The position numbers were made by a program, and so were the translations under genes. The notes beneath the pieces are model-generated. The model searched no databases. It was not told the origin of the DNA and worked only from the letters and a program-made list of their open reading frames with translations. Positions 1,215-48,700 of a DNA stretch of 64,000 bases are shown piece by piece (within the stretch, counting starts at the first letter, position 1; every line of letters begins with the position of its first letter). Source of the stretch: Isurus oxyrinchus (taxonomy: Eukaryota); NCBI GenBank assembly GCA_026770705.1, contig JANJGN010000150.1, forward strand, positions 434,001 through 498,000. The letters run 5' to 3'.

Positions 1215-1490
1215 GGCACTCCAAGGGTTAACAGTTTGCTTTCATACTTTGACAGCAAACACCTCCCACTTTGTCTCAAAGTGACACATCCATCCTTTCT
1301 CATTAAATACACAGAGGGAGCGGCACAGGAAGAGGTCATTCAGCCCAAGCAGAGCGTGTGGGCAGTTCCTCCCCAGGCGAGCAGTCGGACAGGTCCTGGG
1401 TAAGTAACGGAACGATTGGAATTCACTTCCACCACCAACACCGTCCTTTGTTGATGTTGTGACTTTATAAAGACAGATTCCAATAATTCA
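1215..1490 (+). promoter_or_regulatory. Extra copy of the putative promoter / non-coding first exon (donor GTAAGT at 1400)
   Basis: Near-identical to 7790-7990 and 24400-24610, which precede the signal-peptide exons. This copy is cut off by the 33-bp array. Confidence 0.5.
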
Positions 1491-8353: not shown

Positions 8354-8393
8354 ATGATCGGGAAATCTTACTTCCTCCTGTCACTTCTCCAAG
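8354..8393 (+). CDS. Gene A signal-peptide exon (MIGKSYFLLSLLQ)
   Basis: ACAATG start, hydrophobic core, phase-1 donor CAAG|GTAATA, acceptor TTCTCTTTCAG ending 8311. Identical peptide at 24975 and 63796. Confidence 0.85.
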
Positions 8394-21679: not shown

Positions 21680-24160
21680 GAACTGACAGTGCAGCGTTTC
21701 CTCAGTGCTGACCCTCCGTCAGTGCAGCGCTCCCTCATTACTGTCCCTCTGACAGTGCTGCACTACCTCATTATTGACCCTTTTCAAGTGCAGCACCCCG
21801 TCAGCACTGACCTTCTGACAGTGCAGCACTCCCTCATGGATGACAATCTGACAGTGCAGCACTCCCTCAGTACTCACTCACCCACAGTGCAGCATTACCT
21901 CAGTACTGATCCTCTGATACTGTATCCCTCCCTCACTACTGACCTTCCGACAGTTCGGCACTCCCTCGGTACACACCTTCTGACTGTGCAGCACTCCCAC
22001 AGTGCTGACAAACTGACAGTGCAGCATTCCCTCAGTACTGACCCTCTGACACTGTATCCCTCCCTCACTACTGACCTTCCGACAGTTCAGCACTCCCTCA
22101 GTACTGACGCTCCCACAGTGCAGTACTCCCTCAATTCTCACCCTCCCACAGTGCAGCACTCCCTCAGTACTCACCCTCCCACTGTGCTGTGCGAGTTGTT
22201 TCAATCAAGACTGATGCCCAAAGAGGGAGGTTTCATTGCTAAATCATTGAAATCGTGAAAATTATTTTTAGGCTTACGGGAACAAAACTTAGTTCCTCAA
22301 ATCCTTTCTTTTGCAATAACACACAGTACAAGAATTGTGTTTAAATAAATTCCAGTTAAACTTTGCCATGAAAGGATATCTCTCCGCTCTACCTCAGTAC
22401 TAACCCTCCCACAGTCCGGCACCCCCTCAATACTGACCCTCCAACTGTGCGGAACTCACTCAGTACAGACCCTCCGACAGTGCAGCACTCCCACATTACT
22501 GACCCTCTGACAGTGCAGCCCTCCCACATTACTGACCCTCTGACAGTGCAGCAATCCCTCATTACTGACCATCTGACAGTGCAGCCCTCCCACATTACTG
22601 ACCCTCTGATAGTGCAGCACTCCCTCATTACTGACCAACTGACAGTGCAGACCTCCCACATTACTGACCCTCTGACAGTGCAGCCCTCCCACATTACTGA
22701 CCCTCTGACAGTGCAGCCCTCCCACATTACTGACCCTCTGATAGTGCAGCACTCCCTCATTACTGACCACGTGACAGTGCAGACCTCCCACATTACTGAC
22801 CCTCTGACAGTGCAGCCCTCCCACATTACTGACCCTCTGACAGTGCAGCACTCCCTCATTACTGATCCTCTGACAGTGCAGCACTCCCTCAGTACTCACT
22901 CTCCCACAGTGCAGCACTCCCTCAGTACTCACTCTCCCGAAGTGCAGCCCTCCCTCAGTACTCACCCTCCCACAGTGCTGTGTGAGTTGTTTCAATCAAG
23001 ACTGGTGCACAAAGAGGGAGGTTTCAATGCTAAATCATTGAATCGGTGAAAATTATTTTTAGGCTGAGGGGAACAAGACTTAGTTCCTCAAATCCTTTCT
23101 TTTGCAATAACACACAGTACAAGAATTCTGTTTAAATAAATTCCAGTTAAACTATGCCATGAAAGGATATCTCCTCACGCTCCGCTCTACCTCAGTACTA
23201 ACCCTCCCACAGTCCGGCACCCCCTCAATACTGACCCTCCAACTGTGCGGAACTCACTCAGTACTGACCCTCCGACAGTGCAACACTCCCACATTACTGA
23301 CCCTCTGACAGTGCAGCCTTCCCACATTACTGACCCTCTGACAGTGCAGCACTCCCTCATTACTGACCATCTGACAGTGCAGACCTCCCACATTACTGAC
23401 CCTCTGACAGTGCAGCCCTCCCACATTACTGACCCTCTGACAGTGCAGCCCTCCCACATTACTGACCCTCTGACAGTGCAGCACTCCCTCATTACTGAAC
23501 CTCTGACAGTGCAGCACTCCCTCAGTACTCACTCTCCCACAGTGCAGCACTCCCTCAGTACTCATACTCCCACAGTGCAGCACTCCCTCAGTACTCACCC
23601 TCCCACAGTGCAGCACTCCCTCAGTACTCACCCTCCCACTGTGCTGAGCGAGTTGTTTCAATCAAGACTGGTGCACAAAGAGGGAGGTTTCATTGCTAAA
23701 TCATTGAAATCCGTGAAAATTATTTTTAGGCTTACGGGAACAAGACTTAGTTCCTCAAATCCTTTCTTTTGCAATAACACACAGTACAAGAATTGTGTTT
23801 AAATAAATTCCAGTTAAACTTTGCCATGAAAGGATATCTCCTCACACTCCACTCTACCTCAGTACTAACCCTCCCACAGTCCGGCACCCCCTCAATACTG
23901 ACCCTCCAACTGTGCGGAACTCACTCAGTTCAGACCCACCGACAGTTCAGCACTCCCTTATTACTTACCCTCTGATAGTGCAGCACTCACTCATTACTGA
24001 CGCTCTGATGTTGCAGCACTCCCACATTACTGACTCTCTGACAGTGCAGCCCTCCCACATTACTGACTCTCTGACAGTGCAGCCCTCCCACATTACTGAC
24101 CCTCTGATAGTGCAGCACTCCCACAGTAAACTCCCGCTGACAGTGCAGCACTCCCTCCGT
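21680..24160. repeat. 33-bp satellite variants interleaved with a triplicated ~195-bp spacer
   Basis: Spacer GAGTTGTTTCAATCAAGACTG...GCCATGAAAGGATATCTC at ~22192, ~22983 and ~23650. A local unit variant contains CCCACATTACTG. Confidence 0.9.
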
Positions 24161-24379
24161 AATGATAACAGGGATCGTTGAAATGTATCATAAGGCCAGA
24201 GACCTGTATTGGGAACTCTTATCGCCTGAGTTTCAGCCTCCGAGGTGAGGGGCAGGAGTCTAATCCCACAGAGCCAATGGAGAAGCTTCATGACTACAGC
24301 TGCCCAAATATGAGCTGACAGATCATCACATGGTAAGCGTTTTGCTGAGAGCACAAAACATCCTCGATCTTCTCACTGG

Positions 24380-24974: not shown

Positions 24975-25014
24975 ATGATCGGGAAATCCTACTTCCTCCT
25001 GTCACTTCTCCAAG
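24975..25014 (+). CDS. Gene B signal-peptide exon
   Basis: MIGKSYFLLSLLQ, then G|GTAATA. Confidence 0.85.
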
Positions 25015-28000: not shown

Positions 28001-31000
28001 TGTGTCTTCAAAGGTTTCCTGAGCAGTCAGTACACTGCGATTTCAACCCTCTCTGATGCTGTGTCTCTGTTGTGGTCTGACCAAAGCGTCGAGGGTCGTC
28101 TCATGCCATGTAGTTCGATCTAAGGCTGTTCACCATGTCATACCTGTACTGAATCTTGCTGCCAGAATGTTTGGCCACCGCTGATCACCATGTTGTGTTT
28201 TTCTAATGATATAAAGGCACCAGCCACTGATACGGAATTGGGTAAATACATTGTGGGTTCAGTTATTTAGAACAGGGACATGAGAACAGATATACAAGGA
28301 TAGAAAGCTGGGAGACACCTGCGGCCAAACTGTGTGAGCTGTGTTCTGCTCACAGGCCAAAGTGAAACTTGGACTGGATGGTGTTATCATCCCAGCTGAT
28401 GTTACTGCTGGGCAAGTCAGATCCCAGGGTGGAACTCAGCTTGATAGGTCCTAACTTTTATTTTTTATTTAGGAATGTGGAGTGCGGCTACTGAACAGAG
28501 TCACAGGAGTCATCTGTTGATCTTCTAACAAAAGAATAAAACATTTATTAAACTAGGAAAGACAAACTATATTACATTACACCTTCACCCAGATCTATAC
28601 CTTTGCAGATTCATAAGTAGAACACAAGTTACAATAACTATCTTATATTCTCATGTTCACCCTAAGTGCACTTTCGATATAAACCAATAGACGACCTGTG
28701 GTCAGGGACACCACATTCTGAAAGCAAGTGGCAGAGCCCACTTGAAACAATATCTATGTCTCATCTGTCCCCAGACGCTTGTTACACTGTGAGCCAACCA
28801 GTCTCACTGAAAAGCTTCTTTCATATGAGAGTTTCCAATCTCCACTCTCCAAGAACTCACTTTGGAATCTTCTCCAACATGACACTTTCACTCAGACACC
28901 TTCCACAAGGGTCCACTTTCACTATTTCAAACTCTCCTTCCCATGTTCCTGCCCCCTGGATCGCCACGTGCATTCAGCCTTCCTTCCACGCCCTGTCTCT
29001 CCAATGCTCAGCCGTGTCAATGGAACACCATGGCTTCACATGGCCGTAGTAATGAGTCACCAACCTGTGGTGTCTCCTAGGATCTTCTGGCTTCTCGCAA
29101 GCCTATTTTGCTTTAGGCAAAACAAAATCAGCAAGTTAACCCAATGTCCCGGACAGTGGAATTCCAAATGCATTGTCCCAACTTCAGTTCTGTTGGATAG
29201 CAGGCTTCTGTACAAACAGGGTCCTGAGGACCATGAACCAATGTAGAATGAACTTTTCCACTTTTGTGTCCAGGATTCTCTTCCATCTGGTGTGATACCT
29301 TGTGGAGTTCATTGTGTGTCCTGTAGATGGTCCACACTGCAGCCACTGTGCCCGAGTGATGGAGGGGGTGGATATCGAGTCTAGTGGATCAACAAAACAT
29401 CCAGAGTTAAATATTGATATTTCTCTCCCCAGTTGGATTGTCACAAGAGTGGAAAGGTGACACTCCACGAGAGGTGACAGCGCAGGAAGGTTCGTGTGTA
29501 CAGATTCCATGTCATTACAGTTATCCATCAGATTTGGTAAAGAAACCACATGTCGGAATCTGGAAAATGAGAAGCTACATACGGAACAAATGGTCTAAAT
29601 GGTCTACAGCCTTTCACTCCAAGGGTCACAGTCACGAGTTACCACGGTTCCGCCATCGGACCCGGCTGTCTGGAGACCTGAAAGATGGCGACTGTTCCCT
29701 GATTATAAACAACATCAGACGGGAAGATGCAGGACCTTATTTTTTCACGATAAAATTTGGCAATCGTCCGAGCCATAACTATTACCCTGTAACCCAGCTT
29801 CAGGTTTCTGGTAAGTGCTGTGTTATAATTACTCAACAATTCACATCCAACACTCAATGGGAAATAATAGTGTTTGATTTGCTTGTTTTTTGGCCGTGTT
29901 AACCTGCGTCACTATTTTTAATGATTTGTCTATTTCTGCTCCCAGATCCATGAGCTTATTGTGTGTGATTGAATCCACATCATAGCTGTAATGTAAACCG
30001 AGCTGAGGGGTGATGACACCTCCCCCCTGAGTGAAGTATCTCCTCCCCACTACACCTTCCACCCCTCACACTGTCCGTGTAAACCCCCGTCCCATCTCCA
30101 GCCTCTCTTTCCCCTCCAAAGTCCTTGAACGTGTTTCCATCTCCCGAATCCGTTCCCATCTTTCCCGGATCTCCATGTTTGAATCCCTCCAATCAGGTTC
30201 CCACCCCAGCCACTGTGCTGAAACAGCTCCTATCAAGGTCAGAAATGGCATCCTGTGTGACTGTGACAAAGGTCAACTTTCCCTCCTCGTCCTTCTCGAT
30301 CTGTCTGCAGCCTTTGACACGCTCGACCACACCATCCTCCTCAAACACCTGTCCACTGTCGTCCAGCTGGGTGGGACTGCTCTCCCCTGGCTCCATTCTT
30401 ATCCATCTCATCGTAGCCAGAGAATCACTTGCAATGGCTTTGCAGCATCATCTGAACAGTGTTAGTTTTCACCTGTCCACTGAGGATCCCCAGCTCTACC
30501 TCACCACCACCTCTCTCGACTCCGCCACTGCTGCTAAATTATCAGGCTGCTTATCCGACATCCAGTACTGGATGGGCAGAAATTCCCTCCAATTAAATAT
30601 TGGAAAGACTGAAGCCATTGTCTTCATTCCCTGCTCCAAACTCTGTTCCCTCGCTACCAACTCCATTCCTCTCCCTGGCAGCTCTCTGAGATTGAAGCCA
30701 ATCTGTTCACAGCTTTGTTGTCCCATTTGATCCTGAGATGAGCTTCCGGCCTCATATCTGCGCCCTCACTAACACCGTCTATTTCCACCTCCGTAACATT
30801 GTACGACGTCACCCTGTCTCAGCTCATCTGCTGCTGAAACCCTCATCCACGCCTTCATTACCTCCAGACTCGACTGTTCCAACACACGCTCTACACTCCA
30901 TAAACTTGAGGCCATCCAAAACTGCTGACCACATCCTTACTCACACCAAGTCCCGAGACTGGTTCCTGGTCAAGCAAAGTCTCAATGTCCAAATTTTTGA

Positions 31001-34000
31001 ATATTTTTCCTCCCTATTACAGTAATCTCCTCCTCTTCCTTCATCCACGGCAACATTCCCTATCTCAGGAGTCTCCTCCTGTCCCTACAACCCTCCCTAT
31101 CTCAGGAGCCTCCTCCAGTCCCTACAACCCTCCCTATTTCAGGAGCCTCCTCCAGTCCCGACAACCCTCCCTATCTCAGGAGCCTCCTCCAGTCCCTACA
31201 ACCCTCCCTATTTCAGGAGCCTCCTCCAGTCCCTACAACCCTCCCTATCTCAGGAGCCTCTTCCAGTCCCTACAACCCTCCCTATCTCAGGAGCCTCCTC
31301 CAGTCCCTACAACCCTCCCTATCTCAGGAGCCTCCTCCAGTCCCTACAACCCTCCCTATCTCAGGAGACTCCTCCAGTCTCTACAACCCTCCTATCTCAG
31401 TACCTTCTTCCAATCCTGAAAACCATTCCTATCACTGCAAACTCCTCCGGACCCAACACCCCTCCCTATCTCTTTAACCTCCTCAAGCCCCGATAACCCT
31501 CGCGATATTTGTAGCCTCCTTCAGTCCTAACAACCTCCCCTATCTCTGCAACCTCCTCCAGACCGAATACCTCTCCCTATCTCTGTAAGCTGCTCCATCT
31601 CTTACAACCCTTCATATTTCTGTAACCTCATCCAGCCCACTACAACCCTCCCTATCTCTGTAACCTCCTCCAGTCCTTAAAAGCTTCCATTATCTCTGTA
31701 ACCTCCTCCAGCCATTATAACCCTCCCTATCTGTAGCCTCCCTGAGCCCCAGCCACACTCCATATCTATGTAACCTCGTCCTGCCCCTACAACCCTTCCT
31801 ATCTCTGTAACCCCATCCTGCCCCAAAAACTCCCCCATCTCTGTAAACCCCTCCAGTCCCTGCAACCTTCCCTACCTCTGAAACCTCCACCAGCCTTTCC
31901 AACCCTCCCTACCTCTGCAATCCGTCCAGGCCCTACAACTCTTCCTATCCCTGTAAACTCCTCCTGCCCCTAAAACCCTCTCTGCTCTTGCAGCCTCCTC
32001 CAGTCCCTACACGCTCCCCATCTCCATAAACTCCTCAAGTCCCTACAGCCCTCCCTATCTCTGCAACCTCCTCCAGGTCCTACCACCCTCCCTATCTGCG
32101 TAACCTCCTCCAGCATCTACAGCCCTCCCTATCTCTGTTACCTCCTCCAGCCCCCACAAACCTCCCTATCTGTGTAAGCTCCTCCAGCCCCTGATGGAAG
32201 GTGGGTTGAGCGGGTCAGTCACTTGCATGTTTATTCTGCAGCTTTAATATTTTAAGATGGTAAGAATGTAGGAACATAAGAAATAGGGACAGGAGCAGGC
32301 CATTCGGCCCCTCGAGCCTGCTCTCACTGATCTGGTTGTGGCCTTAACTCCATTTTCCTGCCTGTCCCCCAAACCCTTGACTCCCTTGTCGATCAAAAAC
32401 CTGCCTCACTCAGCCTTGAGTCTATTCAATGGCCCAGCTTCCACTGCTCTCTGGGGAAGAGAATTCCACAGGCTAGCGCCCCTCTGAGAGAGGAAATTCC
32501 TCCTCATCTCAGTCTTAAATGGGAGAGCCCTCATTCCGAAACTGTGCTCCCTGGTTCTAGATTCCCCCACGAGGGGGAAACATCCTCCCAGTATCCACCC
32601 TGTCAAGCCCCCTCGGAATCGGATATGTTTCAATAAGGTCACCCCTCATTCTTCTAAACTCCAATGGATACAGGCCCAACCTGCTCAACATTTCCTCACA
32701 GGACAAACCCTTTAATCCCAGGAATCAGCCCAGTGAACCTCCTCTGGACTGCGTTCAATGCAACTCTATCCCTCCATAAGTAAGGAGACCAGAACTGTAC
32801 ACACTGCTCCTGATACAATCTCACCCTGTGCAGCTGTTGCAAGACTTCCCTCCTTTTATACTCCATCCCTTTGCAATAAAGGCCAACATTCCACTTGCCT
32901 TCCTCATTCCGTGGTGTTCCTGAATGCTGACTTTCTGTGATTCATGTACAAGGACACCCAGATCCCTCTGTACTGCATTCTGCATCATGTCTCCATTTAA
33001 ATAATATCCTGTTTTTCTATTCTTCCTGCCAAAATAATTTGTTGCCATTCTCCTCAGTATTGACCATCCCCCCAATTCAGCCTCATCAGTAAATTTTGAG
33101 TCTAGTGGATCCACAAACCATCCAGAGTTAAATATTGATATTTCTCTCCCCAGCTGAACCCTCACAAGAGTGGAAAGGTGACACTCCACGAGAGGTGACA
33201 GCGCAGGAAGGTTCGTGTGTACAGATTCCATGTCATTACAGTTATCCATCGTGTCTGGAAAACCAAACGCGACGTGGAGTCTGGTTTAATAATGAGAAAG
33301 AGATTCCCTGGGCTCCCATTGCCTTTCACTCCAAGGATCACAGTCACGAGTTACCACGGTTCCACCATCGGACCCGGCTGTCTGGAGACCTGAAAGATGG
33401 CGACTGTTCCCTGATTATAAACAACATCAGACGGGAAGATGCAGGACCTTATTTTTTCAGAATAGAATTTGACAATGGTCCGAGCTATAACTATTACCCT
33501 GTAACCCAGCTTCACGTTTCTGGTAAGTGCTGTGTTATAATTACTCAACAATTCACATTCAACACTCAATGGGAAATAACACAAACTGTGACGTTTACAT
33601 ATTAACACAAAACACAGCTTATTATAACACACTGTCTGATTCTCAATAACCTGGTGATAGCTTCCAGTTCAGTCCTAAAACAACCTCTAATACCACTTTA
33701 ATATCAATGATTAAATGTATTGACTGTGTCCATCAATGTTATCAGGTTATCCACTTACATCAATCTCCCTAATCCTGTTTAAAACTTTTACATATCAACA
33801 AAAGAAAGATTTGCATTTCTATAGCACCTTTCACCACCTCTGGACGTCGCAAATGGATTCACAACCATTGAAATAATTCTTGAAATGTAGCCCTTGTTGT
33901 AATCTGGGAAACACAGCAGCCAATTTGTGCACAGGAAGCTCCCAGAAACAGCAATGTGATCAATAACCTGATCGTCTGCTTTAAATGCCGGTTCAGTGAT

Positions 34001-37000
34001 TGGTTCAAATGGATTCTCTCCTGCTGGGAACTGGATAGAATTTAAATCTGGCAGATTTCGGAGAAAGTAACAAGCCAGTGTGTCAGGAACTGTGAGCTGA
34101 TCCCCCACCCTCACCCGGGATTGTCAATTCAATTGTCTCAAAGTGGAAGTGAATTCATCTGAGTGACAGAAACTCCACTAAGTCTGAAAACAGGAAATTC
34201 TCTCCTGATCATTGTAATCTCTCAGTTCTGATATCATCCTTGTAAAAGTGCTTTCTCTTGTGGGACTGTGATTTCTATTTGAACTGATGCTTCACGTTAT
34301 ATTTCTCTAAAAGGATCCATTCTCTGTGTGTTAGATTTCACAGATAAACCCATGATATTCCCTGCTGAAATTATTGCAGGAAAGCGTGTGGATGTAAGCT
34401 GCACCTTCAACACAACGTGCAATGGAACAGCAGCACCTGTCTTAACCTGGGACACTCTCACTGACGTACCTGGATCAATCTCAAACACTGTAACTCAGCA
34501 TGGTGTCACTCTGACCTATACTTCTGTTCTGACCCTGATCCCATCACTCAAACACCACGGACACACTCTTAGCTGCAGAGTGAGATATCCATCTGTTTCA
34601 TCGGAGCAGACCCTTATGCTAACTGTAAAATGTAAGTATGGATTCCCTTCATTCTATATTAGCTGTAATAGGATACAATGTGCAGAGCAAGATCCCACAA
34701 ACATCACTGGGTTGAAGACAAAACAGGTCCTTTTTTATTAGTGATATTGACCAGGGAGAGCTCTTCCTGTATTGAGCCTTGGGATTGTTTATGCCTACCT
34801 GATAGGGCAGAGGGGGCCAAGGTTGAACTTAAAAGACAATATAGGATAATATAAATATTGTCTTCATTGATGTCAAAGATTTTGGGGGAGATGTAGTATA
34901 AAAGTTTAATATTAACAATGTAAATAGATAGTATTTATCATCAGTTACTCAAGGTCACATGAGAATAGAACACGGAGAGAGATAGTTCTATAGATACCTA
35001 GGTACATAGAAACTAGGAGCACGATTAGGACATTCAGCCCTTCAAGCCTTCTCCGCCATTCAATATGATCAAGGCTGACCCTCTATCTCAAAGCCTTATT
35101 CCCGCTTTCTCTCCGTACCCTTTGATGCCCCTAATATCAAAATATTTATCAGTTTCTTTCTTGAATACACTCAGTGACCCGGCCTCCACAGCCTCTGTGA
35201 TGGAGAATTCCACAGATTGACCACCCTCTGAGTGAAGAAATGTTTCCCTATCTCAGTCCAAAATGGCCTGCCCTGTATCCTGAGATTGTCGCCCTTGGTT
35301 TTAGACTCCCCAACCAAGGGATGCATCCTCCCTCCATCCAGTCTGTCTATCTCTGTTAGAATTTCTTACGTTTATTCAGGTCTCCTCTCATTCTTCTAAA
35401 CTCTAGTGAATACAGACCCAGTCGTACCAATTCTCCTCATACGACAGTCCTGCCGCCCCTGGTATCAGCCTAGAGAACCTTCTCTGCGCTCTCTCGACGG
35501 CAAGTCTATCCTTTTTTAGGGAGGGAGAGCAAAACGGCACGTAGTATCCCATGTGCAGTCTCACCAAGACCTTGTATAACTGCAGTAAGACATCCCTACT
35601 CCTGAACACAAATCCTCTTGCAATGAAGGCCAACATACCATTTGCCTTCCGAATTACTTGCTGCACCTGCCTGTTTACTTTCATTGGCTAGTGCACAAGG
35701 ACACCCAGATCCCTTTATACATCCACATTTCCCATTATATCACCATTTAAATAATACTCTGCCTTTCTGTTTTTCACACCAAAGCCTACAATGTCACATT
35801 CATCCACATCATCTGCCATGTGTTTGCCCACACACACAACTTGTCTAAATCGCCTTGAAGCCTCTTTGCATCCTCCTCACAGCTCACACCCTTACCCAGC
35901 GTTGTGTCATCAGAAAACCTGGAAATATTGCACTTGGCTCCCTCACCCAAGTCATTTAAATATATCGTGAATAGTTAGGTCCCAAGCACGGATCCCTGTG
36001 GTATACCACTAGTCACCGCCTGCCACTCAGATAAAGACTAATTTATTCTGACCCTCTGTTTCCTGTCTGTCGACCAATTCTCAATCCATGCCAGTAAATT
36101 ACCCCCAATCCCATGGGCTTTAATGTTGCCCACTAGCCTCTTATGTGGGACCTTATCAAAAGCCTTCTTGAAATCTAAAAACACCACATCCACTTATCTA
36201 TTCCACAAGTTACATCCTCAAAATCTCCAGTAGATTAGTTAAGCATGATTTTCCTTTCATTAACCCATGCTGACTTTGTCTAATCCCATTAAGGCTTTCC
36301 AAGCGTTCCATTAGCACACCTTATATAATAGGCTCTAGCGTTTTCCCCATGTTAGACTAACTGGTCTGTAATTCCCAGTTTTTTTCTCTCCCTTCTATTT
36401 TAAATAGTGGGGTTACAATTGCCACTCTCCAATCTATAGGAACTGCTCCAGAGCCTATAGAATTTTGGAGGATGACCACCAGTGCTTCCAATATTTCCAG
36501 GGTCACTTCCGTTAGTCTCTGGGATGTAGATTTTCAGGCCCTGGGGACTGTTCAACCTTTAACCCATTAATTTCTCCAGCTCCATTTTTTAAAACTAATC
36601 CTGATTATCTTCAATTCCTCCCTCTCACTAGACACTTGGTTCCCTAACATTCCTGGGAAATTATTTGTGTCCTCTTTTGTGAAGACAGAACCAAAATATA
36701 TGTTCAGTTCTTCTGCCATTTCTTTGTTTCTCATTAGAATTTCCCCCATTTCTGACTGCAAGGAACCTACATCGGTCACTGCTAATCTTCCTCTCTTCAC
36801 ATATTTATAGAAGCTTTTACAGTCGGTTTTTACGTTCCCTGCAAGTTTACTCCCATGTTCCATTTTCCCCTTCTTGATCAATCTTTTTGTCCACTTTTGC
36901 TGAATTCTAAACTGCTCCCAATCCTCAGCATTGCTGCTTCCCCTGGCAATTTTATGTCTCCTCTCTGGATCTAATACTATCCCTAATTTCTTTTGTAAGC

Positions 37001-39705
37001 CCTGGTTGAGCACCATTTCCTGATTTATTTTTACGCCAGACAGAAATGGATAATTGTTGTAGCAAATGCTTCAGCCTTATCTTTTGCCCTGATGTGCTGG
37101 GCTCCCCCTTCATTGAGGATGGGGATATTTGTGGATTCCCCTCCTCCAGTGAGCTAATTGTCCGTTACCATTGGATACGAGCATTAGTGGACTGTATTAG
37201 ACCATTATCGAAAATGAAAGCCGGACTCCAGTATGGCCTCACTATGATGGATATGACAACTCGATTTCCAGAGACCATCCCTTTAGGAACAATTACAGCT
37301 AAAGTAGTAATAGGGAAGTTAACCCAATTTTTTACCCATTATGGATTACTGCTGGAGATCCAGTCAGATCAAGGTTCCATCTCTATGTCTTAAAATTTTC
37401 TGAACATAATGAGTAATTTGGGTATAAAACAGTTAAAGTCCACAGCATATCATCCATAGACACAGGGATCTTTAGAGAGGGACCAACAAACACTCAAAAC
37501 AATGATTGAAGCTATTGTCATGAACTCCCCATGACTGGGACAAAGGACTGGATTTTCTTGTATTTCCCACACGAGATTCACCAACTGAATCGGCAGGTTT
37601 TAGTCTTTTTGGAATAACTTATGGACACGAGATAAGAGGCTGTCTGAAATACATCAAAGAAAGATATTCCGGACAGAGGGATGAATCCTCTATTTCAGAT
37701 GATGTGTCCATGTTTCAGGAACGGCTCATAGGAGCCTCCAAAGTGGCACAAGAACATCTTATAGTTTCTCAAACAGAGATGAAGGAATGGGGCAGACAGG
37801 CAAGCTGTGACCCGAACATCACAACCAGGGGGATGACGTGTTAGTATCATTGCCTTGGCAGGGGGAGCCTCTGAAAGCGCGGTTCAGTGGTCCCCACAAG
37901 GTAATTAGGAGGGTTGGTCAAGTAAATTATTTGATAGACACCCCAGATTGTAGAATAAAGAATCGGCTGTGACACATCAATATGTTAAAACGATACCATC
38001 GTAGGGAGGGAGGTAAAAAGGAGCAGGTATTTCATTTCCAACCAGATTCTGCATAGATTACAGAAAGGTTAATGCAGCAATAAAACCAGATTCCTACCCA
38101 ATCCCCTGTTTAGAAGATGGTATTGACGGGGTTGGCAGTGCCATGTTCCTTACTGAGATAAATTTGTTGGTAGTGGGGGGTGTTCGTGACCATCAGTGTG
38201 GAAGGGTTAGGTTTACAGGTTACACAGACCACACACGCACCAACAGACACACACACACATGNNNNNNNNNNNNNNNNNNNNNNNNNNNNNNNNNNNNNNN
38301 NNNNNNNNNNNNNNNNNNNNNNNNNNNNNNNNNNNNNNNNNNNNNNNNNNNNNNNNNNNNNNNNNNNNNNNNNNNNNNNNNNNNNNNNNNNNNNNNNNNN
38401 NNNNNNNNNNNNNNNNNNNNNNNCATGCACANNNNNNNNNNNNNNNNNNNNNNNNNNNNNNNNNNNNNNNNNNNNNNNNNNNNNNNNNNNNNNNNNNNNN
38501 NNNNNNNNNNNNNNNNNNNNNNNNNNNNNNNNNNNNNNNNNNNNNNNNNNNNNNNNNNNNNNNNNNNNNNNNNNNNNNNNNNNNNNNNNNNNNNNNNNNN
38601 NNNNNNNNNNNNNNNNNNNNNNNNNNNNNNNNNNNNNNNNNNNNNNNNNNNNNNNNNNNNNNNNNNNNNNNNNNNNNNNNNNNNNNNNNNNNNNNNNNNN
38701 NNNNNNNNNNNNNNNNNNNNNNNNNTCAGTGCTGCACTGGAGTCTCGGTGTCAGCTCCGATTCTGTGCTGAAGGAAGGTAAACTCCAGATCAACAAGACC
38801 CTGAATTGGATGAGCAAAATCCTTAACAGAGAATTGTAGATTTACCCCTCAGTGCTCCATCGATTAAATATAATTCATTACAAAAACAGAATTACCTGGA
38901 AAAACTCAGCAAGTCTGGCAGCATCGGCGGAGAAGAAAAGAGTTGACGTTTCGAGTCTTCATGACCCTTCGACAGAACTTTAGTTCTGTCGAAGGGTCAT
39001 GAAGACTCGAAACGTCAACTCTTTTCTTCTCCGCCGATGCTGCCAGACCTGCTGAGTTTTTCCAGGTAATTCTGTTTTTGTTTTGGATTTCCAGCATCCG
39101 CAGTTCTCTTTGTTTTTATCTCTGTGTTTAATATAATTCATTGCCTGTCAAGCCCTTGGGGACATCCTGAGGATGTGAAAGGGAGTTTCTTTAAATCTGG
39201 ATGGGCAGGGTCTCTGGTGGGAGAATGCTCCTGCAGTGTGACAGTTTACATAGGCAGTGCCCATTGTAAATGTGACATAGGAACTTATCTTGAGGGAAGG
39301 TGCCTAGAAATGCACACAGGCATCAGATACAGAGACATGATGCATGGAGTCTTGCTGTGCACAGTGCTTGCTCACATTAAACACTTGATTTGTTCTTAGA
39401 TGCACCACAGAATCTCTCAATTACTTCTCTTGATATGATTAACGCTTCATGGATCAATATAATTGAGGGGAATTCTGCAGAGATAATCTGCTCTGTCGAG
39501 AGCTTCCCAGCTTCTAACCTGACGTGGCAACATCTTAATGTCCCAATGAACAGAACAAGTTCCAACAATGAGCTGTGGTTGGTGATTCCTCACGTTACAT
39601 CCAGGGACACTGGAGACTATCAGTGTGTGGCAGAGAATGAACATGGAGCAGTGGAGGGATTCATAACCATCACTGTGGAATGTGAGTTAATGCAAACTTC
39701 AACAG

Positions 39706-39769
<64 letters not shown>

Positions 39770-42700
39770 CACACACAAACACAGATACACGCACACGTGT
39801 CAGCTCCCTCTCCTGTCTCAGTGCTGCACTCGAGTCTCGGTAGCAGCTCTGATTCTGTGTTGAAGGAAGGTAAACTCCAGATCATCAAGACACTGAATTG
39901 GATGGAGCAACCTCCTGAACAGTGAATTGTAGGTTTATCACCCAATACCCCATTATTCCAAAGCAATTCCTCCATGGTGAAATCTCCGTGAACATCCTGA
40001 TCATGTGATTTTCCTCTAGCCCAAAAGTGTCTCCTCTGGTGGAAGGCTGTAATTACAGCGTGACAGTTTACATATCCACACGCAGCAAGAGCTGAACAAC
40101 ACTCAGCTTGGGCTGAGAAATGACAAGTAATGTTCACATCACACAAGGACCAGGCAGTGATCATCTCCAACAAGAGAGAATCTAACCATCTCCCCTTGAT
40201 ATTCAATCACTTTCACATCGCTGAATCCCCCACAATCCACATCCTGGGGAATGTTAACCAAACAACTAACTGGACCGGCCATAAATACTGTGGCTACAGG
40301 AGCCGGTCAGAGGCTGGGAATTCTGTGGGGGTGAAAAACTCACCACCACCTCCTCAAGGGCAATTAGGGATGGGTAATAAATGCTGGTCTAGATAGATAC
40401 AGCCACTTCCCATGAATATGCAAAAAGGAACACACTGGCAGTGAATGTTACAAATGGTGACAGAGAAAATTATAATGGAGAAAGAAGCCTTGACATGCAC
40501 ATAGACACCAGATGGAGAGAGATAATACCTGGAGTCTTGCTGTGCACTGTGTTTGCTCACAATGAAACCTTTATTTGTATTTAGATGCACCACGGAACCC
40601 ATCAATTACTTCTCTTGATATGATTAACGCTTCATCGATCAACATAATTGAGGGGAATTCTGCAGTGATAATCTGCTCTGTCGAGAGCTTCCCAGCTTCT
40701 AACCTGACGTGGCGACATCTTAATGTCCCAATGAACAGAACAAGTTCCAACAATGAGCTGTGGTTGGTGATTCCTCACGTTACATCCAGGGACACTGGAG
40801 ACTATCAGTGTGTGGCAGAGAATGAACATGGAGCAGTGGAGGGGTTCATAACCATCACTGTGGAACGTGAGTGTGGAGATACATTTGTTTGTTTGTTGTC
40901 TCCGTGGTCTCCGTGGAGCCATTGGGATCGTGTTGTTTTTAATCCAGTTTTCTTCAATCCTCGCTCAGTCCACATTATCCACACACCCAATTTTTCCTCT
41001 CCCTTTCTGTTTTTGGTCTCAGTTTCTCCTTCAATGGTTGTGAGGACAAGGCTGTCAGGTCTTCGTTTCCAATCTCCGTACTTGATGAACTTTCTCTCTC
41101 TAACTGTCCTGAACAACCCTTTTAATTGCTGAACGTCTCCTCTTGATCTCAGCCACTCATTGGTCTTTCTGTCCATCCAGCTGATTCTGAGCATCTGGCA
41201 GCATCTGTGGAGAGAAAGACAGGGTTAGCGTTTGGAGTCCGTAAGACTCCTCTTCAGAGCTAAAGGGAAGTAGACATGTGGTGAAATATATCCTGTCTAA
41301 GGCGGGGCGATGGGACAGGTGGAGCTGGATAGAAAACCAGCGATAGGTGGAGGCAATGGAGAGATTGTGGAAGATGTCATAAACAAAAGGTCAATGGGTT
41401 GTTAACAGTGGTGGTATTGGATAAAGGAGGTGCTAATGGTGACATTAAGCAGAGTGTGATAATGGGCGGACCAGGGTAAGCACTCTGGAAAGAGACAGAT
41501 GGCCCTCGTGGGGGTGTGGCAGGGGGAGGGGACGGTGGAGGGAATAAAGATCGAAAATAGACTAAAATCTGCGGTTTAACACAATCAATAAAATGGAAAT
41601 GAATTTCAAATAATAATAATAAAAATAAGTGGAAAACAGTCAACAAATAAAACAATTAAAATGAATATATAAAAAAGGGTTCAAAAAGCAGTGAAGATCG
41701 AGGAGAGAGTTCATGATCTGAAAGTGTTGAACTCAATATTCAGTCGGGAAGGCTGTAAAGTGCCAGGTCGGAAGATGAGGTGCTGTTCCTCCAGTTTGCG
41801 TTGGGCTTCACTGGAACAATGCAGCAGGCCAAGGACGGACATGTGGGCATGAGAGCAGGGTGGGGTGTTAAAATGGCAAGCGACAGGGAGGTCTGGGTCA
41901 TGCTTGTGGACAGACCGAAGGTGTTCATCAGAGCGATCACCCAGTCTGTGTTTGGTGTCTCCAATGTAGAGGAGACCACATTGGGAGCAGTGAATGCAGT
42001 AGATTAAATTGAAGGAAGTCTGCATGAAGCGCTGCTTCACCTGGAAGGAGTGTTTGGGTCATTGGACAGTGAGGGGGGAGGAAGTAAAGGGGCAGGTGTT
42101 GCACCTTCTGTAAATACATGGGAAGATGTCATCGGAGAGGGTTGAGGTGCTAGGGGTGATGGAGGAGTGGACCAGGGTGTCCTCGAGGGAATGATCCCTG
42201 TGGAATGCCAATGGGGTGGGGGTGGGGGGGGGGCGGATGTGGTGAAGGGAAGATGTGTTTGGTGGTGGCATCATGCTGGAGTTGGCGGAAATGGCGGAGA
42301 ATGATCCTTTGAATGAGGAGGCTGGTGGGGTGAAAAGTGAAGACAGGAGGGACCCTTACATTGCTCTGGGAGGAAGAGGAATTTGCAAGGGGGGATGCGC
42401 GGGAGATACACAATCTCCAACTCTTTCTCAACCATTAAGATGCTCCTTAAAACCATTAAGACACACCGTTAAAACCTCCTGCTTTCAGCGAGCTTTTGCT
42501 CACCTTTCCTAATATCTCCTAATGTGACTCAGGGTCAGATTTTGTCCGAAGGAGGTGAGAAATGATGGAGGGAATTCCAGAGGTTAGGGTCCAGGCAGCT
42601 TAAGGCACGGCCGCCAATGGTGGAGAGATGGGAATGGGAGAATGTCCAAGAGTTCAGAATTGGAGGAGCGCAGAGATTTCGGAGAGCTGTGGGGTGTGGG

Positions 42701-45700
42701 GATTACCTGCTGATTGTTCTCTGTCTTTGTTCCAGATCCCCCACAGGAGACGATGGTGTCCATCAGCAGATCCTCAGGTGGGATAAGAGAGGGAAGCAAT
42801 ATCACATTAACCTGCTCCAGTGAAAGTGTCCCACCGATATCTCATTACACCTGGTTCAGGATCGAGGGGAACACCAGCACCCAGTTAAATACAAGTAGCC
42901 GCACTCTCTCCTTCACTCCTGTAACACGGGAGAATGATGCAGGTTTCTACTGCACAGCGAGGAACCCAATGGGTAACAGCATCTCCAACATCACCCACCT
43001 GAACGTACAATGTAAGCATTTTACTCCCCCTGTCTCTGCTTAAAACTCAAACACTTTCTGTCTGAGGGCAGCTTCCTTGCTGTGGTTTAGCATAACTAGC
43101 ATCACCTCCCTGCTTTTTTCACCCTGCGCCTCTCCGAGATACATAAGGAGATATCAGAACAGGGACTGAAAGTTCAGAGAAAGAGGCCAGATTTTAAGGA
43201 GTGTCTGAAATGAGGAGAGAGATAGACATGGAGAGGTTTACGGTGGGAATTCTAGAGCTCGGGGCCCAGGCAGCTGAAGGCACGGCCGCCAATGGTGGAG
43301 CGATAGGAATCGGGGGATGGTCAAGAGGCCGGAATTGGAGGAACACAGAGATCTCGGAGGGTTGTAGAGGCTGGAGGAGGTTACAGAGATAGGGAGGGTT
43401 GTGATGGCTGGAGGAGGTTACAGAGATAGGGAGGGTTGTAGGGGCTGGAGGAGGTAACAGAGATAGGGAGGGTTGTAGATGCTGGAGGAGGTAACAGAGA
43501 TAGGGAGGTGTGTAGGGGCTGGAGGAGGTTACAGAGATAGGGAGGGTTGTGGGGTCTGGAGGAGGTTACAGAGATAGGGAGGGTTGAAGGGGCTGGAGGA
43601 GGTTACAGAGATAGGGAGGGTTGTAGATGCTGGAGGAGGTAACAGAGATAGGGAGGGAGTAAGGAGGAATTTGAAACGATGTAAATTTTAAAATTGTGGC
43701 ATTGTCGGACCGGGAGCCAGTGTAGCTCAGTGACCAACAGGGAGTGATGTGTGAACGGGACTCGGTGTGAGTTAGGACATGGGGACAGCAGAGTTTGGGA
43801 TGAGCTGATGTTTCCGGAGAGTGGAAGATGGGAGGTCGGGCAGGAGAGTGTTGGGATAGTCGAGTGCGGAGGTAACAAAGGCGGGAATGAGTGTTTCAGT
43901 GTTAAGATTCTATCTTACGCTCTAACTTTGCTATGAAGTTGTCTCATTGTTGTCCTTCCCTCCTCAGATAAGCCGGAGATTTCCCAGCAGTCGGAGTGCA
44001 CTCGGAGGTCAGAGGGGGTCACCTGCGTCTGTGTGGCCAACTCCAACCCACCCGGAGACCTCACCTGGCACCTGCCCAGTGCCAAAATCAGTGGTAACCA
44101 AACACACGGAGGTTTTGTGTCGTGGCAGGTCAGAGATGGGCATCTGGTGACTGGTTCCCTCACCCTGATGAGACCCCAGGATGAGGGGGGAGTGATGGCA
44201 TCCTGCTCGGTTCAAAACCCACACGGGGAAGCCATGTTCAAGATGTATCTGTGGGTCAAAGGTGAGAGACTCGCTCAGGATCGATCTCCACTCAGCTGGA
44301 TTGATCCCTAAACTCGAGAATTCCCTCCCTCAACCTCTCCACCTCTCTCTCTACCTCCTCTAAGATGCTCTTTACAATTGACCCCTTTGACCAAGCTTTG
44401 AATCGCCTGACCTCATGTGACAATGGCAACTCTTGGTCAAATTGGAGCCAGGCCGTTCAGTGGGTGATGTCAGGAAGCACTTCTTCACACAAAGGGGAGT
44501 GGAAATCTGGAACCCTCTCCCCCAGATAAGCTGCTTCATTGGGTGCAAGACAGAAAGCTTTGACAAAATGTCCTTTCTCAGCAATACTCAGGTTCTCCTC
44601 CCAAACGATAAAATATTTTATATAAACATTTCATAGATTACATTGATAAATATTATATATAAATGTTACATAGATTACATTGATAAATATTATATATAAA
44701 TGTTACATAGATTACATTGATAAATATTATATATAAATGTTACATAGATTACGTTGAGAAACGCAACAGCTGATTTGTGCAGAGCAAGATCCCACAAACA
44801 ACAGTGTGAAGATGAGGTGATAAATGATTATTTTAGTCATGTTAGTTGATACATATATATAGAAATTAAAGATATAATTACACATTTAGTGAGGGAAACC
44901 TGTCCATTTTAACAGGTCTGGGTGTATATGTGACTCCAGTCTCAAACACCAACATGGTTAACTCTTACCTGCCCTCTGAACTGGTCTCCCAGTTTGGGAC
45001 AAACCAGTGGTTCAGGAGGAAGACCCCCCACCACCTTCTCAAGGGAAACTAGGGATGGACAATAAATGTCAGCATTGCCCGAGAATGAGTATTTAAACAC
45101 TGAGTGAGTGTATCGCTTCTCGAGATACATCGGAGCATCATTGTAAACCTGTAGTGCAGTAATTAATGGCTGTTTTTACAGGTAGAGACTCCAGTAAATG
45201 GACAGTAGGATTGTTCACGGCTGGGATCATGTTGAGTGTTTTCCTGGCTGGAATCTTCATCTTCATCTGTGTGAGAAAGTAAGTCTGAAGATTTAACTTG
45301 ATTTTAATATAAACATTTGTTTAGGATTAATTGGACAGTTTTTACAAAGGGCCAGCACAGGCACGATGGGCTGAGTGGCTTCCTCCTGAGCTGTGAGATT
45401 TTAAATTCTTTCATCGAATGTGACTGTCACTGGCGTGGCCAATACTAATTGCCCATTCCCTAATTGCCCCTTGAGAATGAGGTAGTGAGATGCCTTCTTG
45501 ACCCGCTGCAGTCCATGTGGTGTAGGTACACCCACAGTGCTGTTAGAGAGGGAGTTCCAGGAGTTTGACCCAGCGACAGTGAAGGAACGGTGATATATTT
45601 CCAAGTCAGGATGGTGAGTGACTTGGAGGGGAACTTCCAGGTGGTGGTGTTCCCATGTGTCTGCTGCCCTTGTCCTTCTAGATGGTAGAGGTCGTGGGTT

Positions 45701-48700
45701 TGGAAGGTGCTGTTGAAGGAGCCTTGCTGAGTTGCCGCAGTGCATCTTGTAGATGGTACACACACTGCTGCCACTGTGTGTTCATGGTGGAGGGAGTAAA
45801 TGTTTAATGTGGTGGATGGGGTGTCGATCAATCGGGCTGCTTTGTCCTGGATGGTGTCAAGCTTCTTGATTCTGTGCTTTGTGCAGAAGTGATTGAAAGT
45901 GACAGTCCAGTCGTTGGTGTAAGGTTACAGTGGGCTCTGTGTCTGTGCTGCACTGACTCTCTGCTATATGATAACCACAGTGTGATATTGTGTTATTTCA
46001 GGAGAAAGACAGCGATGGAGGAGAGAGTTTCGGGGACCAGTGACATTGCATTGACCCCCAGTCCACTCTCTGTGAAGCACCAGGTACAGGAGCTGTTTAC
46101 ACTCACTCCAAAGCTTCAATCTCAGTGTGTAGACAACACATGTCCCAGATTGCCAGCCCTGTTACCCACTGATTTGTACCTGTGGAGTCAGCAATGGTTC
46201 AGTATCATGCTGTCTCTCTGTTATGACACAGCAACTGGTAAAGGCTGTTGTTTAAAATCCCAGAGGGAAACTTTAAACAACTGTCATAAACTATATTTCC
46301 CAGTGGAATGTTTGAGATGCATCTCTAAATTCAGGAATAAGACCACCAGTTCTCGAGATGGGTTTATATCAAACTAAATGAGACATATATTAATTTACAC
46401 AAGTTAAACATATGCACATGGCTACAAACTAGTATTATCATAACTTTTTAACAAATTCTCAAACTAATCTCCTCTAAGACAACCCATAGTCTTTAAGCAG
46501 ATTCCAGGCATTTTCACCTCTCAAATTCCAGTCTCTCTCTCTATCTCAACCTCCCTTTCTTTCTCTCTCTTTCTCTCTCTCTCATCCTCTCTCTGATTAC
46601 AAGGTGCACGTTAATGAGCTTCACACCAGAAACTTGAGTGAAGAATCCAAGCCGTCACTCACCAGAGCCATTACCGAGGGAGTGCGAGACTGACAGCGGG
46701 TCAGTACTGAGGGAGTGCGAGACTGACAGAGGGTCACTATTGAGGAAGTGCTGCACTGTTGGAGGGTCAGTCCTGAGGGAGCACTGCACTGCCATAGGTG
46801 GTTTCTTTCATAAGACATGGGAGAGAGAGTTAAACCCACTGAGACACGACTGACATTAACGAAGCTGCACAATAATTTAACCCTATCAGTGCCAGTAAAT
46901 AATGTGAGGATGTCTTCTGTTTCCATTTCTCTGTAGGGTAAACAGAACGTGCTGATTACTGAGCCCCGGAACACAACCAGAGACACAACTAGCGAGGGGG
47001 AGACCCCAGCTCCCCGGGGTCCCTCTGAAGGTGCAGTGGGAGGCGATGCTGGACTTGGGAACCCCGGCAAACCTGAAGAGTTTCTCTACGCCAATCCCCA
47101 AGTTTTGAGGGTGTCCAGTGGTGATGGGTCTGTCCACAGGGAAGAGGAGACGGAATACGCACAGATCAGGTTTGAGCATAACTGAATGAGAAATGGGGAG
47201 TGGGAGTGAGGAAATGTGGGTGTGCGGGTAGGGATTGAGATTCCTGGGAACAGGAAACAACCCACTGGGGGAGAGGGGGAGAGAGGGAGGAAGGGATGGA
47301 ATTGGGCTACGGTTGGTGTGGTTTGGAATGAAATGCTTCTCCAGAGAGGACTGGATGCTGAGCCATTGGGGAGTGAGATTCACTGTCTCTCTCTCTTTCT
47401 CTCTCTCTCTTCCTCTCTGTCTCTCTCTTTCTTTCTGTGTCTGTCTCTCATTCTCTATCTCCAGCTCCTCCTTTAAGATGCCCGTTAATAACTGACTTTG
47501 TTGACTCAGCAGTTGGTCTCCTGTCCCTAATATCTCCTCATGTGCCTCAGAGTCAGGTGAAATGTGACTAACAATCCCCGGATGAGCCTTGGGACATTTT
47601 GCTACATTGAAGGTGCTATATAAATGCAAGTTGTTGCAGTAACTCTGATCTGCTTCGATTAACAATGGAACCACAGAGGTTCCTTCGACAGGGCGTGTGT
47701 GCAGCAGGGTCACAATAAATACATTGAGCTGTGAGGTTTTTAATTCTTACATCGAATGTGGCTGTCACTGGTGATGTCCGCATTGATGCCAATCTCTAAC
47801 TGCCCTTGAGAAGGTGGTGGTGAGCTGCCTTCTTCACCCGCTGCAGTCCATGTGGTGTAGGTACACCCACAGTGCTGTTAGAGAGGGAATTCCAGGATGT
47901 TAACCCAGCGACAGTGAAGGAACGGTGATATATTTCCAAGTCAGGATGGTGAGTGACTTGGAGGGGAACTTCCAGGTGGTGGTGTTCCCATGTGTCTGCT
48001 GTCCTTGTCCTTCTGGATGGTAGAGGTCGCGTATTTGGAAGGTGCTGTTGAAGGAGCCTTGCTGAGTTGCTGCAGTGCATCTTGTAGATGGTACACACAC
48101 TGCTGCCACTGTGTGTTCATGGTGGAGGGAGTGAATGTTTAATGTGGTGGATGTGGTATGGATCAATCGGGCTGCTTTGTCCTGGATGGTGTCGAGCGTC
48201 TTGATTCTGTGCTTTGTGCAGAAGTGATTTAAAGAGAGAGTCCAGTCATTGGTGTAAGGTTACAGTGGGCTCTGTGTCTGTGCTGCACTGACTCTCTGCT
48301 ATATGATAACCACAGTGTGATATTTTGTTATTGCAGGAGAAAGACAGCGATGGAGGAGAGAGTTTCAGGGACCAGTGACATTGCATTGACCCCCAGTCCA
48401 CTCTCTGTGAAGCACCAGGTACAGGAGCTGTTTACACTCACTCCAAAGCTTCAATCTCAGTGTGTAGACAACATATGTCCCAGATTCCCAGCCCAGTTAC
48501 CCACTGATTTGTACCTGTGGGGTCAGCAATGGTTCAGTATCATGCTGTCTCTCTGTTATGACACAGCAACTGGTAAAGGCTGTTGCTTAAAATCCCAGAG
48601 GGAAACTTTAAACAGCTGTCGTAACCTATATTTCCCAGTGGAATGTTTGAGATGCAGCTCTAAATTCAGGAATAAGACCACCAGTTCTCAAGATGATTTT

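What the first reader, a model, noticed from the sequence alone, without database searches (positions are those of the whole stretch)
29433..33522. Tandem V-V head in gene B with the outer V lacking the essential Arg
V3 has YFFTIK where the other three V exons have Y(Y/F)FRIE, plus a 3-aa longer, strongly basic C-C' loop. V4 beneath it keeps the Arg. Known: loss of this Arg abolishes sialic-acid binding, and human SIGLEC12 also has two V-set domains with the Arg lost from the N-terminal one. Both exons are phase 1/1, so they could also be used alternatively, giving sialic-acid-binding and non-binding isoforms. V4 begins AEPSQ rather than VGLSQ (the signal-peptide tail), consistent with an internal position.
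Basis: partly seen in the sequence, partly recalled or inferred. Interest (0 to 1): 0.72.

Follow-up and report, generated by a model that had tools for sequence, protein, structure and literature searches.

The report
Shark Siglec with dedicated arginine-less head
A shark immune-receptor gene stacks two sugar-binding-type domains; the outer one belongs to a family of dozens of copies that have lost the arginine used to grip sialic acid and sit on an inner domain that keeps it, so the outer domain likely senses something else while the inner one likely still reads sialic acid.

Summary
Observation confirmed: V3 (29433-29810, YFFTIK, 3 aa longer, net +8) precedes V4 (33154-33522, YFFRIE, AEPSQ) in an intact 881-aa Siglec-like gene. 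It is not a one-off. The assembly holds about 1,060 V-exon candidates. Of the 60 closest V3-like exons, 59 are followed by a second V, all 59 with Arg and 56 with an extra BC-loop cysteine that first-position V exons lack (1 of 34); 50 of 51 in V3's own subfamily lack Arg. Heads lost Arg three times (Thr/Met, Gly, Ser), sit on 1-6 inner V exons and carry inhibitory or Arg-type tails. A contig from a run guessed to be RNA joins a Thr-type exon directly to an AEPSQ exon. So V3 and V4 are specialised head and inner domains used together; alternative use is weakly supported (skipping V3 would leave a free cysteine; skipping V4 stays possible). The basic hairpin is older than the Arg loss. Human Siglec-XII lacks Arg in both V domains, so the parallel is partial. 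Ligand and disulfide are untested. The scan noted both the Arg loss and the cysteine before on other DNA of this genome.

The parts
24975..25014 (+). Gene B signal-peptide exon (MIGKSYFLLSLLQ, phase 1)
   Evidence: SP-to-V GT..AG joint 25012>29431 in contigs of 4 of 4 runs, any paralogue
29433..29810 (+). V3, head V-set exon: Arg->Thr (ACG), TIK motif, long basic C-C' hairpin, Cys35/40/101, no BC-loop Cys
33154..33522 (+). V4, inner V-set exon: canonical Arg, AEPSQ start, Cys161/166/224 plus extra BC-loop Cys173 (YSYPSC)
34335..34631 (+). First C2 exon with the Siglec second Cys (SCTFNTTC), aligned to MAG domain 2
   Evidence: V-to-C2 joint 33521>34334 in 3 of 4 runs
39400..39681 (+). Ig exon C2b copy 1
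40585..40866 (+). Ig exon C2b copy 2
42736..43011 (+). Ig exon C2c
43968..44261 (+). Ig exon C2d
45182..45278 (+). Uncharged transmembrane exon
46002..46083 (+). Cytoplasmic exon 1 (duplicate at 48337-48418)
46937..47185 (+). Last cytoplasmic exon, FLYANP and TEYAQI tyrosine motifs
50118..50366 (+). Duplicate last cytoplasmic exon, ILYANI (ITIM consensus, recalled) and TEYAQI

Best explanation
Gene B encodes a Siglec-like receptor with inhibitory-type tail motifs whose two V-set exons are likely used together as a specialised head (V3) on a specialised inner domain (V4), the two predicted to be stapled by a disulfide, with V4 likely still binding sialic acid and V3 likely binding a different, probably anionic, ligand. 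Shown: exon anatomy; position-specific Arg and Cys patterns across the family; head-to-inner splicing in a paralogue; Arg-less heads on both tail types. Inferred: V3 Cys35 pairs with V4 Cys173 and V4 Cys161 with C2 Cys291, extending the V-C2 disulfide of Siglecs one domain up; with a sialic-acid site kept below, the exposed head is free to change ligand; V3's basic Trp-rich hairpin and basic F-G face (RIE->TIK, DNG->GNR) point to a polyanion such as a microbial surface or sulfated glycan; copies with Arg-type transmembrane exons would act as activating partners.
For: 59 of the 60 best V3-like exons are followed by a second V, 59 of 59 with Arg and 56 of 59 with the BC Cys (all 51 intact ones); 50 of 51 'KMR' heads lack Arg and 45 of 51 are intact, the same share as inner exons. 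In 1.06 Mb of contiguous DNA (chosen for V3-like exons) 19 of 19 Arg-less V exons directly follow an SP exon and precede an Arg-bearing V; tails: 10 inhibitory with cytoplasmic exons, 4 uncharged TM only, 5 Arg-type TM. Three separate non-conservative losses (T/M, G, S) fall in the head clade of the tree (support 0.999; contexts). Other sharks and rays: Cys in 38 of 49 scorable inner V domains vs 1 of 81 first ones. X3 contig 13 (137 nt, depth 6.15) carries the Thr-Ile-Lys codons over 105 nt and runs 32 nt into the AEPSQ exon start; X3 contig 12 covers V3's basic segment with 2 differences in 124 nt. V3 folds as a Siglec V-set (pLDDT 85; MAG Z 18.3, rmsd 1.6 over 117); three Cys, both Trp and the F-strand Tyr are invariant in 31 of 31 heads, while the G-strand YY became VS in 19 of 31 heads and 0 of 68 inner exons. 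CD33 C36-C169 disulfide and loss of binding in R119A: PMC6669322 (passages).
Against: No binding data for either domain. The disulfide is not shown: the V-V-C2 model of a basking-shark relative has pTM 0.49, a low-confidence linker and gave no distances. dN/dS does not separate selection from drift: heads 30 N:3 S in loops (ratio 2.8, p 0.09), framework 1.0, inner exons 0.7-0.85, none significant. All Thr/Met copies are one event multiplied, so counts are not independent. Exceptions: Arg->Lys in 4 inner and 2 single V exons; 11 of 49 inner domains in other species lack the Cys. The RNA contigs come from runs only guessed to be RNA, of an organism that may not be this species, and contig 13 is a paralogue of V3, not gene B itself. 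Gly- and Ser-type heads are not basic (mean -3.7 and -1), so an anionic ligand cannot be the general rule.
Confidence: 0.5

Rival explanations
1. Tolerated drift: the tandem is real and co-spliced, but V3 has no new ligand. Arg loss was harmless because V4 keeps the site, and the copy was amplified by birth-and-death duplication; V3 acts as a spacer or steric cap over V4.
For: Framework dN/dS near 1 in heads (22 N:7 S); many broken exons in the family; restriction of Arg loss to heads with a back-up is equally predicted by relaxation; human Siglec-XII is a precedent for retirement after Arg loss (PMC6288428, passages).
Against: Structural residues invariant in 31 of 31 heads; heads as often intact as inner exons (45 of 51 vs 51 of 59); changes cluster on the ligand face and towards basic residues; loop N:S 30:3.
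Confidence: 0.25
2. V3 still binds sialylated or sulfated glycans through a shifted basic site: Lys two residues along strand F (same face as the lost Arg), Arg in the F-G turn and the basic hairpin replace the canonical Arg.
For: RIE->TIK and DNG->GNR changes accompany the loss; A-strand Trp kept; Siglec-6 binds gangliosides without its canonical Arg (PMC10122656, passages); many Siglecs bind 6-O-sulfated glycosaminoglycans (PMC13331776, passages).
Against: Canonical-Arg mutation abolishes binding in CD33 (PMC6669322) and in Siglec-1, -5, -7, -9, -10 (PMC10122656); further G-strand erosion (YY->VS) in 19 of 31 heads.
Confidence: 0.13
3. One reading: V3 and V4 are alternative exons giving sialic-acid-binding (SP-V4) and non-binding (SP-V3-C2) receptors.
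For: Both exons are phase 1/1; SP-V3-C2 would keep all cysteines paired; head-type exons directly before C2 exist (L118; C121:337258, broken) and one Cys-bearing single V exists (C546:100539).
Against: Head-to-inner splice contig; V-end to V-start joints also in X1 and X6 (sides of 30 or fewer letters in X6); BC Cys and AEPSQ specialisation conserved in catsharks, houndshark and whale shark models; SP-V4 would leave Cys173 free.
Confidence: 0.12

Closest known systems
Primate Siglec-12 / human Siglec-XII (SIGLEC12)
   Same: Two N-terminal V-set domains; Arg lost from the outer V; tyrosine-motif tail (PMC7876704, PMC6288428, PMC7379906; passages).
   Different: Human protein has the Arg mutated in both V domains and is a single decaying locus; chimpanzee Siglec-12 binds through the terminal V. 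Here the inner V keeps Arg, the head is a multi-copy clade, inner V number runs from 1 to at least 9, and inner V has an extra Cys (whether Siglec-12 V2 has one was not tested). Tandem V arose independently (inference from the shark-specific exon sequences).
CD33-related Siglecs and MAG (Siglec-4)
   Same: V-set with B-E disulfide Cys, interdomain Cys, F-strand Arg; C2 with second Cys; best sequence and fold matches are Siglec-5, MAG, Siglec-7, CD33, sialoadhesin.
   Different: One V domain only; 14-15 genes in humans versus at least 377 signal-peptide exons and about 1,060 V candidates in this assembly (haplotype duplicates not removed).
Paired Siglecs (Siglec-5/14, -11/16)
   Same: Near-identical ectodomains on inhibitory and charged-TM tails; Arg lost or polymorphic in ape Siglec-5/14 (PMC7379906, passages).
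   Different: Charged residue here is an Arg near the start of the TM exon; pairing involves many genes, and the Arg-less head is backed by an Arg-bearing inner V.
[quoted passage not shown]
   Same: Multi-V heads with AEPSQ linkers and inner Cys in 33 of 86 hits with more than one V.
   Different: Automatic names only; none of the 86 has the Thr/Met head (non-Arg residues seen: K, S, Y); white and basking shark long-hairpin heads keep Arg.

Membership tests
Siglec | N-terminal V-set domain of Siglec type followed by C2-set domains, TM and tail | tested here: met
Siglec | Intra-sheet B-E disulfide Cys and V-C2 interdomain Cys pair | tested here: met
   Cys 35/40/101, 161/166/224, 285/291/343 in sequence, aligned to Siglec-5 and MAG; bonds themselves not observed
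Siglec | Essential F-strand Arg in the N-terminal V domain | tested here: not met
   V3 has Thr; V4 (second domain) has Arg. By the primate naming rule this is an Arg-mutant, Siglec-like protein
Siglec | Sialic-acid-dependent binding | not testable with these tools
   needs glycan arrays
Siglec | Cytoplasmic ITIM/ITIM-like motifs or charged TM | tested here: met
   ILYANI / FLYANP and TEYAQI; consensus recalled; signalling untested
SIGLEC12 orthologue | Descent from the primate CD33-related cluster gene | not tested
   no vertebrate-wide tree built; V3 and V4 differ only in two patches and share intron flanks, which points to duplication within sharks
SIGLEC12-like layout | Both V domains without Arg (human) or Arg in the terminal V (chimpanzee) | tested here: not met
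   outer minus, inner plus versus PMC7876704 passages
Alternatively used V-exon array | Mutually exclusive or skipped V exons in transcripts | tested here: inconclusive
   V-V joints present; no SP-AEPSQ row shown, but contigs cannot show absence

The most novel reading that the evidence does not exclude
Sharks run a germline repertoire of several hundred paired Siglec-like receptors built as a variable head V on a disulfide-stapled stalk of 1 to 9 or more sialic-acid-binding V repeats. Heads have repeatedly dropped the sialic-acid Arg and taken new ligands, so one receptor reads self sialic acid and a foreign or damage ligand together, and V3 is one such repurposed head.
Probability: 0.3. Interest if true: 0.8.

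Novelty: new variant of a known kind. Interest (0 to 1): 0.55.

Why it matters
Siglec biology is read from a family of about 15 single-V genes in which Arg loss means retirement, and teleosts are reported to lack CD33-related Siglecs (PMC7226832, passages). A shark family of hundreds of exons with head and inner V domains, head-restricted Arg loss and paired tails would show that a Siglec V-set can be repurposed while a second site keeps sialic-acid reading, and that an inner V can bind glycan at all. V3 and V4 are 77% identical and an Arg-bearing sister head with the same hairpin exists, which makes a clean three-way binding comparison possible.

Tried and rejected
Self-BLAST of the window was swamped by minisatellites. 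A first motif script had a spacing error and found nothing (redone). No run is on record as RNA (no RNA holder listed; kinds are guesses). The 10-kb lay showed no V3-V4 joint among its 15 listed rows (303 hidden, repeats dominate). No SP-to-AEPSQ row appeared; contigs show presence only, so this is not counted. No complex prediction was run (the domains are one chain). SignalP was not available; cleavage of SP-V4 is untested. Selection tests were not significant (pairwise ratio 3.7 is inflated by non-independence). Rejected: V3 as a private mutation or assembly error (identical protein on C546, dozens of relatives); V3 as a plain pseudo-exon (open frame, splice sites, spliced paralogue); coupling of hairpin and Arg loss. 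Literature: four searches pairing siglec with shark terms and one on fish Siglec evolution listed no paper on this family; only listings were seen, plus one passage of PMC8455134 (single mention); subscription journals are mostly not held. PMC3123068 and PMC516556 were not held, so the residue-level state of Siglec-12 V2 rests on one sentence of PMC7876704.
Full report
OBSERVATION. The window lies on contig C150 of a 4.98-Gb assembly; the closest named proteins are from white and basking sharks (up to 82% identity), so it is a shark. Gene B runs SP 24975-25014, V3 29433-29810, V4 33154-33522, five further Ig exons, an uncharged TM exon and duplicated cytoplasmic exons. All splice sites are AG/GT, V3 and V4 are phase 1/1, and the exons give one 881-aa frame. 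V3 reads YFFTIK, V4 YFFRIE; the V4 Arg aligns with the Arg of Siglec-5 and MAG, the position at which R119A removes binding in CD33 (PMC6669322, passages). V3 is 3 aa longer and has net charge +8 against -4 for V4; outside two patches (BC loop to C' strand, F-G hairpin) the two exons and their flanks are almost identical. V2 of the upstream gene is frameshifted.

SCALE. Protein searches of the own genome gave 1,064 and 1,058 first-look candidates, 150 scored each. An exact F-strand motif occurs 588 times (control 0): 520 with Arg, 47 Thr, 7 Met, 6 Lys, 7 Gly, 1 Ser (Arg by subtraction). There are 377 exact signal-peptide donor motifs and 205 exact BC-loop Cys motifs. These are lower bounds by pattern and upper bounds by haplotype: C546:40-86 kb repeats the window's two genes at 96.5-99.7% but has three V exons in gene B.

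HEAD AND INNER EXONS. I fetched 10 kb around the 60 best V3-like exons after the window's own (rows 2-61; about 68 rows have this length). In 59 of 60 a second V follows; 59 of 59 second exons have Arg and 56 of 59 an extra Cys seven residues after the B-strand Cys (all 51 intact ones). No V lies within about 4.4 kb upstream in any; an SP exon was in range in 12. Of 51 'KMR' heads, 43 have Thr, 7 Met and 1 (broken) Arg; 45 are intact. Nine sister 'YMR' heads have the same long segment and keep Arg, as do long-segment heads of basking and white sharks: the hairpin is older than the loss. In 1.06 Mb of contiguous DNA, chosen for V3-like exons and overlapping the 60 loci, the Cys is in 26 of 28 V exons that follow a V (both exceptions are frameshifted) and 1 of 34 that follow SP; all 19 Arg-less exons follow SP and precede an Arg-bearing V; their tails are inhibitory-type with cytoplasmic exons (10), uncharged TM only (4) or Arg-type TM (5). 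The six other Gly exons are each followed by an Arg/Cys exon; a Ser head tops six inner exons; arrays of 6, 7 and at least 10 V exons occur. Against the pattern: Lys stands in 4 inner and 2 single V exons, and Ser in one broken single exon. In a tree of 130 unique intact exons, 51 of 53 heads form one clade (0.999) with Thr/Met, Gly and Ser losses on separate branches; gene conversion makes deeper branches unreliable. In 86 public shark and ray gene models, 38 of 49 scorable inner V domains have the Cys against 1 of 81 first ones (10 not scorable).

WHY THE CYS MATTERS. In CD33, V-domain C36 pairs with C169 of the next domain (PMC6669322, passages); the shark C2 has the matching second Cys six residues after its B-strand Cys. 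An outer V has no such partner unless the inner V supplies one. Gene B's ten first cysteines pair fully as 40-101, 166-224, 285-343, 35-173 and 161-291 (inference). Dropping V3 leaves 173 free; dropping V4 does not leave any free. A V-V-C2 model of a basking-shark relative did not resolve domain orientation (pTM 0.49), so the bond is predicted, not shown.

TRANSCRIPTS. No holder is on record as RNA, but contigs of runs guessed to be RNA skip the SP-V intron (4 of 4 runs) and the V-C2 intron (3 of 4) at GT..AG. In one search, X3 contig 13 (137 nt, depth 6.15) lies on the last 105 nt of the V exon with the changes G33460C, A33461G and G33465A, which spell Thr-Ile-Lys, and its other 32 letters are the start of an AEPSQ exon: a Thr-type head spliced onto an inner V. 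It differs from V4 at 11 sites and matches none of the five fetched heads that share its other listed change (7-13 sites), so it is a paralogue or an orthologue in a relative. V-end to VGLSQ-start joints appear in X1 and X6. SP letters were seen only before VGLSQ starts; this does not exclude SP-V4.

FOLD AND SELECTION. V3 models as an intact Siglec V-set (pLDDT 85.4; MAG Z 18.3, rmsd 1.6, 117 aligned; sialoadhesin Z 17.8), with the basic stretch as an extended C-C' hairpin. In 31 unique Thr/Met heads the three Cys, two Trp and the F-strand Tyr are invariant; the G-strand YY is VS in 19 of 31 against 0 of 68 inner exons. Loop changes are 30 non-synonymous to 3 synonymous (ratio 2.8, p 0.09), framework 22:7 (1.0); nothing is significant.

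MECHANISM. Most likely (0.5) an obligate tandem in which V4 keeps sialic-acid reading and V3 has a new, probably anionic ligand, on inhibitory and activating-type tails. Rivals: tolerated drift or steric cap (0.25), a shifted basic site that still binds sialylated or sulfated glycans (0.13; Siglec-6 precedent, PMC10122656, passages), alternative exon use (0.12).

KNOWN AND NEW. It works like a CD33-related paired Siglec and fails the strict membership feature of an N-terminal Arg. Two-V layout and Arg loss are known from SIGLEC12, but human Siglec-XII lacks the Arg in both domains (PMC7876704, passages). My five searches on shark or fish Siglecs (listings) showed no description of this family. 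Earlier notes of this scan report the Arg loss, the Cys and the Arg-type TM on other pieces of this genome; I had reached these before looking. What this report adds is the family-wide count, the three head-only losses, the long arrays and the splice contig. Verdict: real, new variant of a known kind, interest 0.55.

Noticed in passing
window 8354-20217 (gene A): SP-V1(Arg)-C2, then a frameshifted V2, a second C2, a half C2b exon and a TM exon with an Arg and a short Tyr-free tail (activating-type); same layout on C546 and C52.
   Followed up: partly
window 46002-47185 and 48337-50366: Cytoplasmic exon pair duplicated; the two last exons differ at the first tyrosine motif (FLYANP vs ILYANI), so alternative last exons could tune inhibition. 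The duplication recurs in several paralogues.
   Followed up: partly
L238-L239 (C52:2280001-2300000), L236-L237, L234-L235: Arrays of at least 10, 7 and 6 tandem V exons at about 2-kb spacing: one divergent head over near-identical Arg/Cys inner exons; in two arrays the second exon is frameshifted and would need skipping.
   Followed up: partly
G000:C546:40000-86000: Near-identical twin of the window's two genes with one more inner V exon: allele, haplotig or recent duplicate with V-number variation.
   Followed up: partly
L069-L074, L087, C546:317432, C646:141182: Mosaic V exons: the TIK end joined to a different C-C' segment, and heads paired with different inner types, suggesting patchwise gene conversion.
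   Followed up: no
C546:359034, C646:237750, C121:293174: Genes with SP joined to C2 and an Arg-type TM but no intact V exon.
   Followed up: no
P0010, P0016 (rays); P0024, P0025, P0032 (carpet sharks): Inner V domains carry Lys or Ser in place of Arg, and in rays Cys-bearing and Cys-less inner domains alternate: the reverse of the pattern in this genome.
   Followed up: no
window 1490-6134, 11664-13451, 21683-24165, 31009-32192, 49611-50004: Large 33-bp and about 37-bp minisatellite arrays, and LINE and LTR-element fragments in introns (for example 13600-16340, 37190-38150); ordinary shark repeats by appearance.
   Followed up: no
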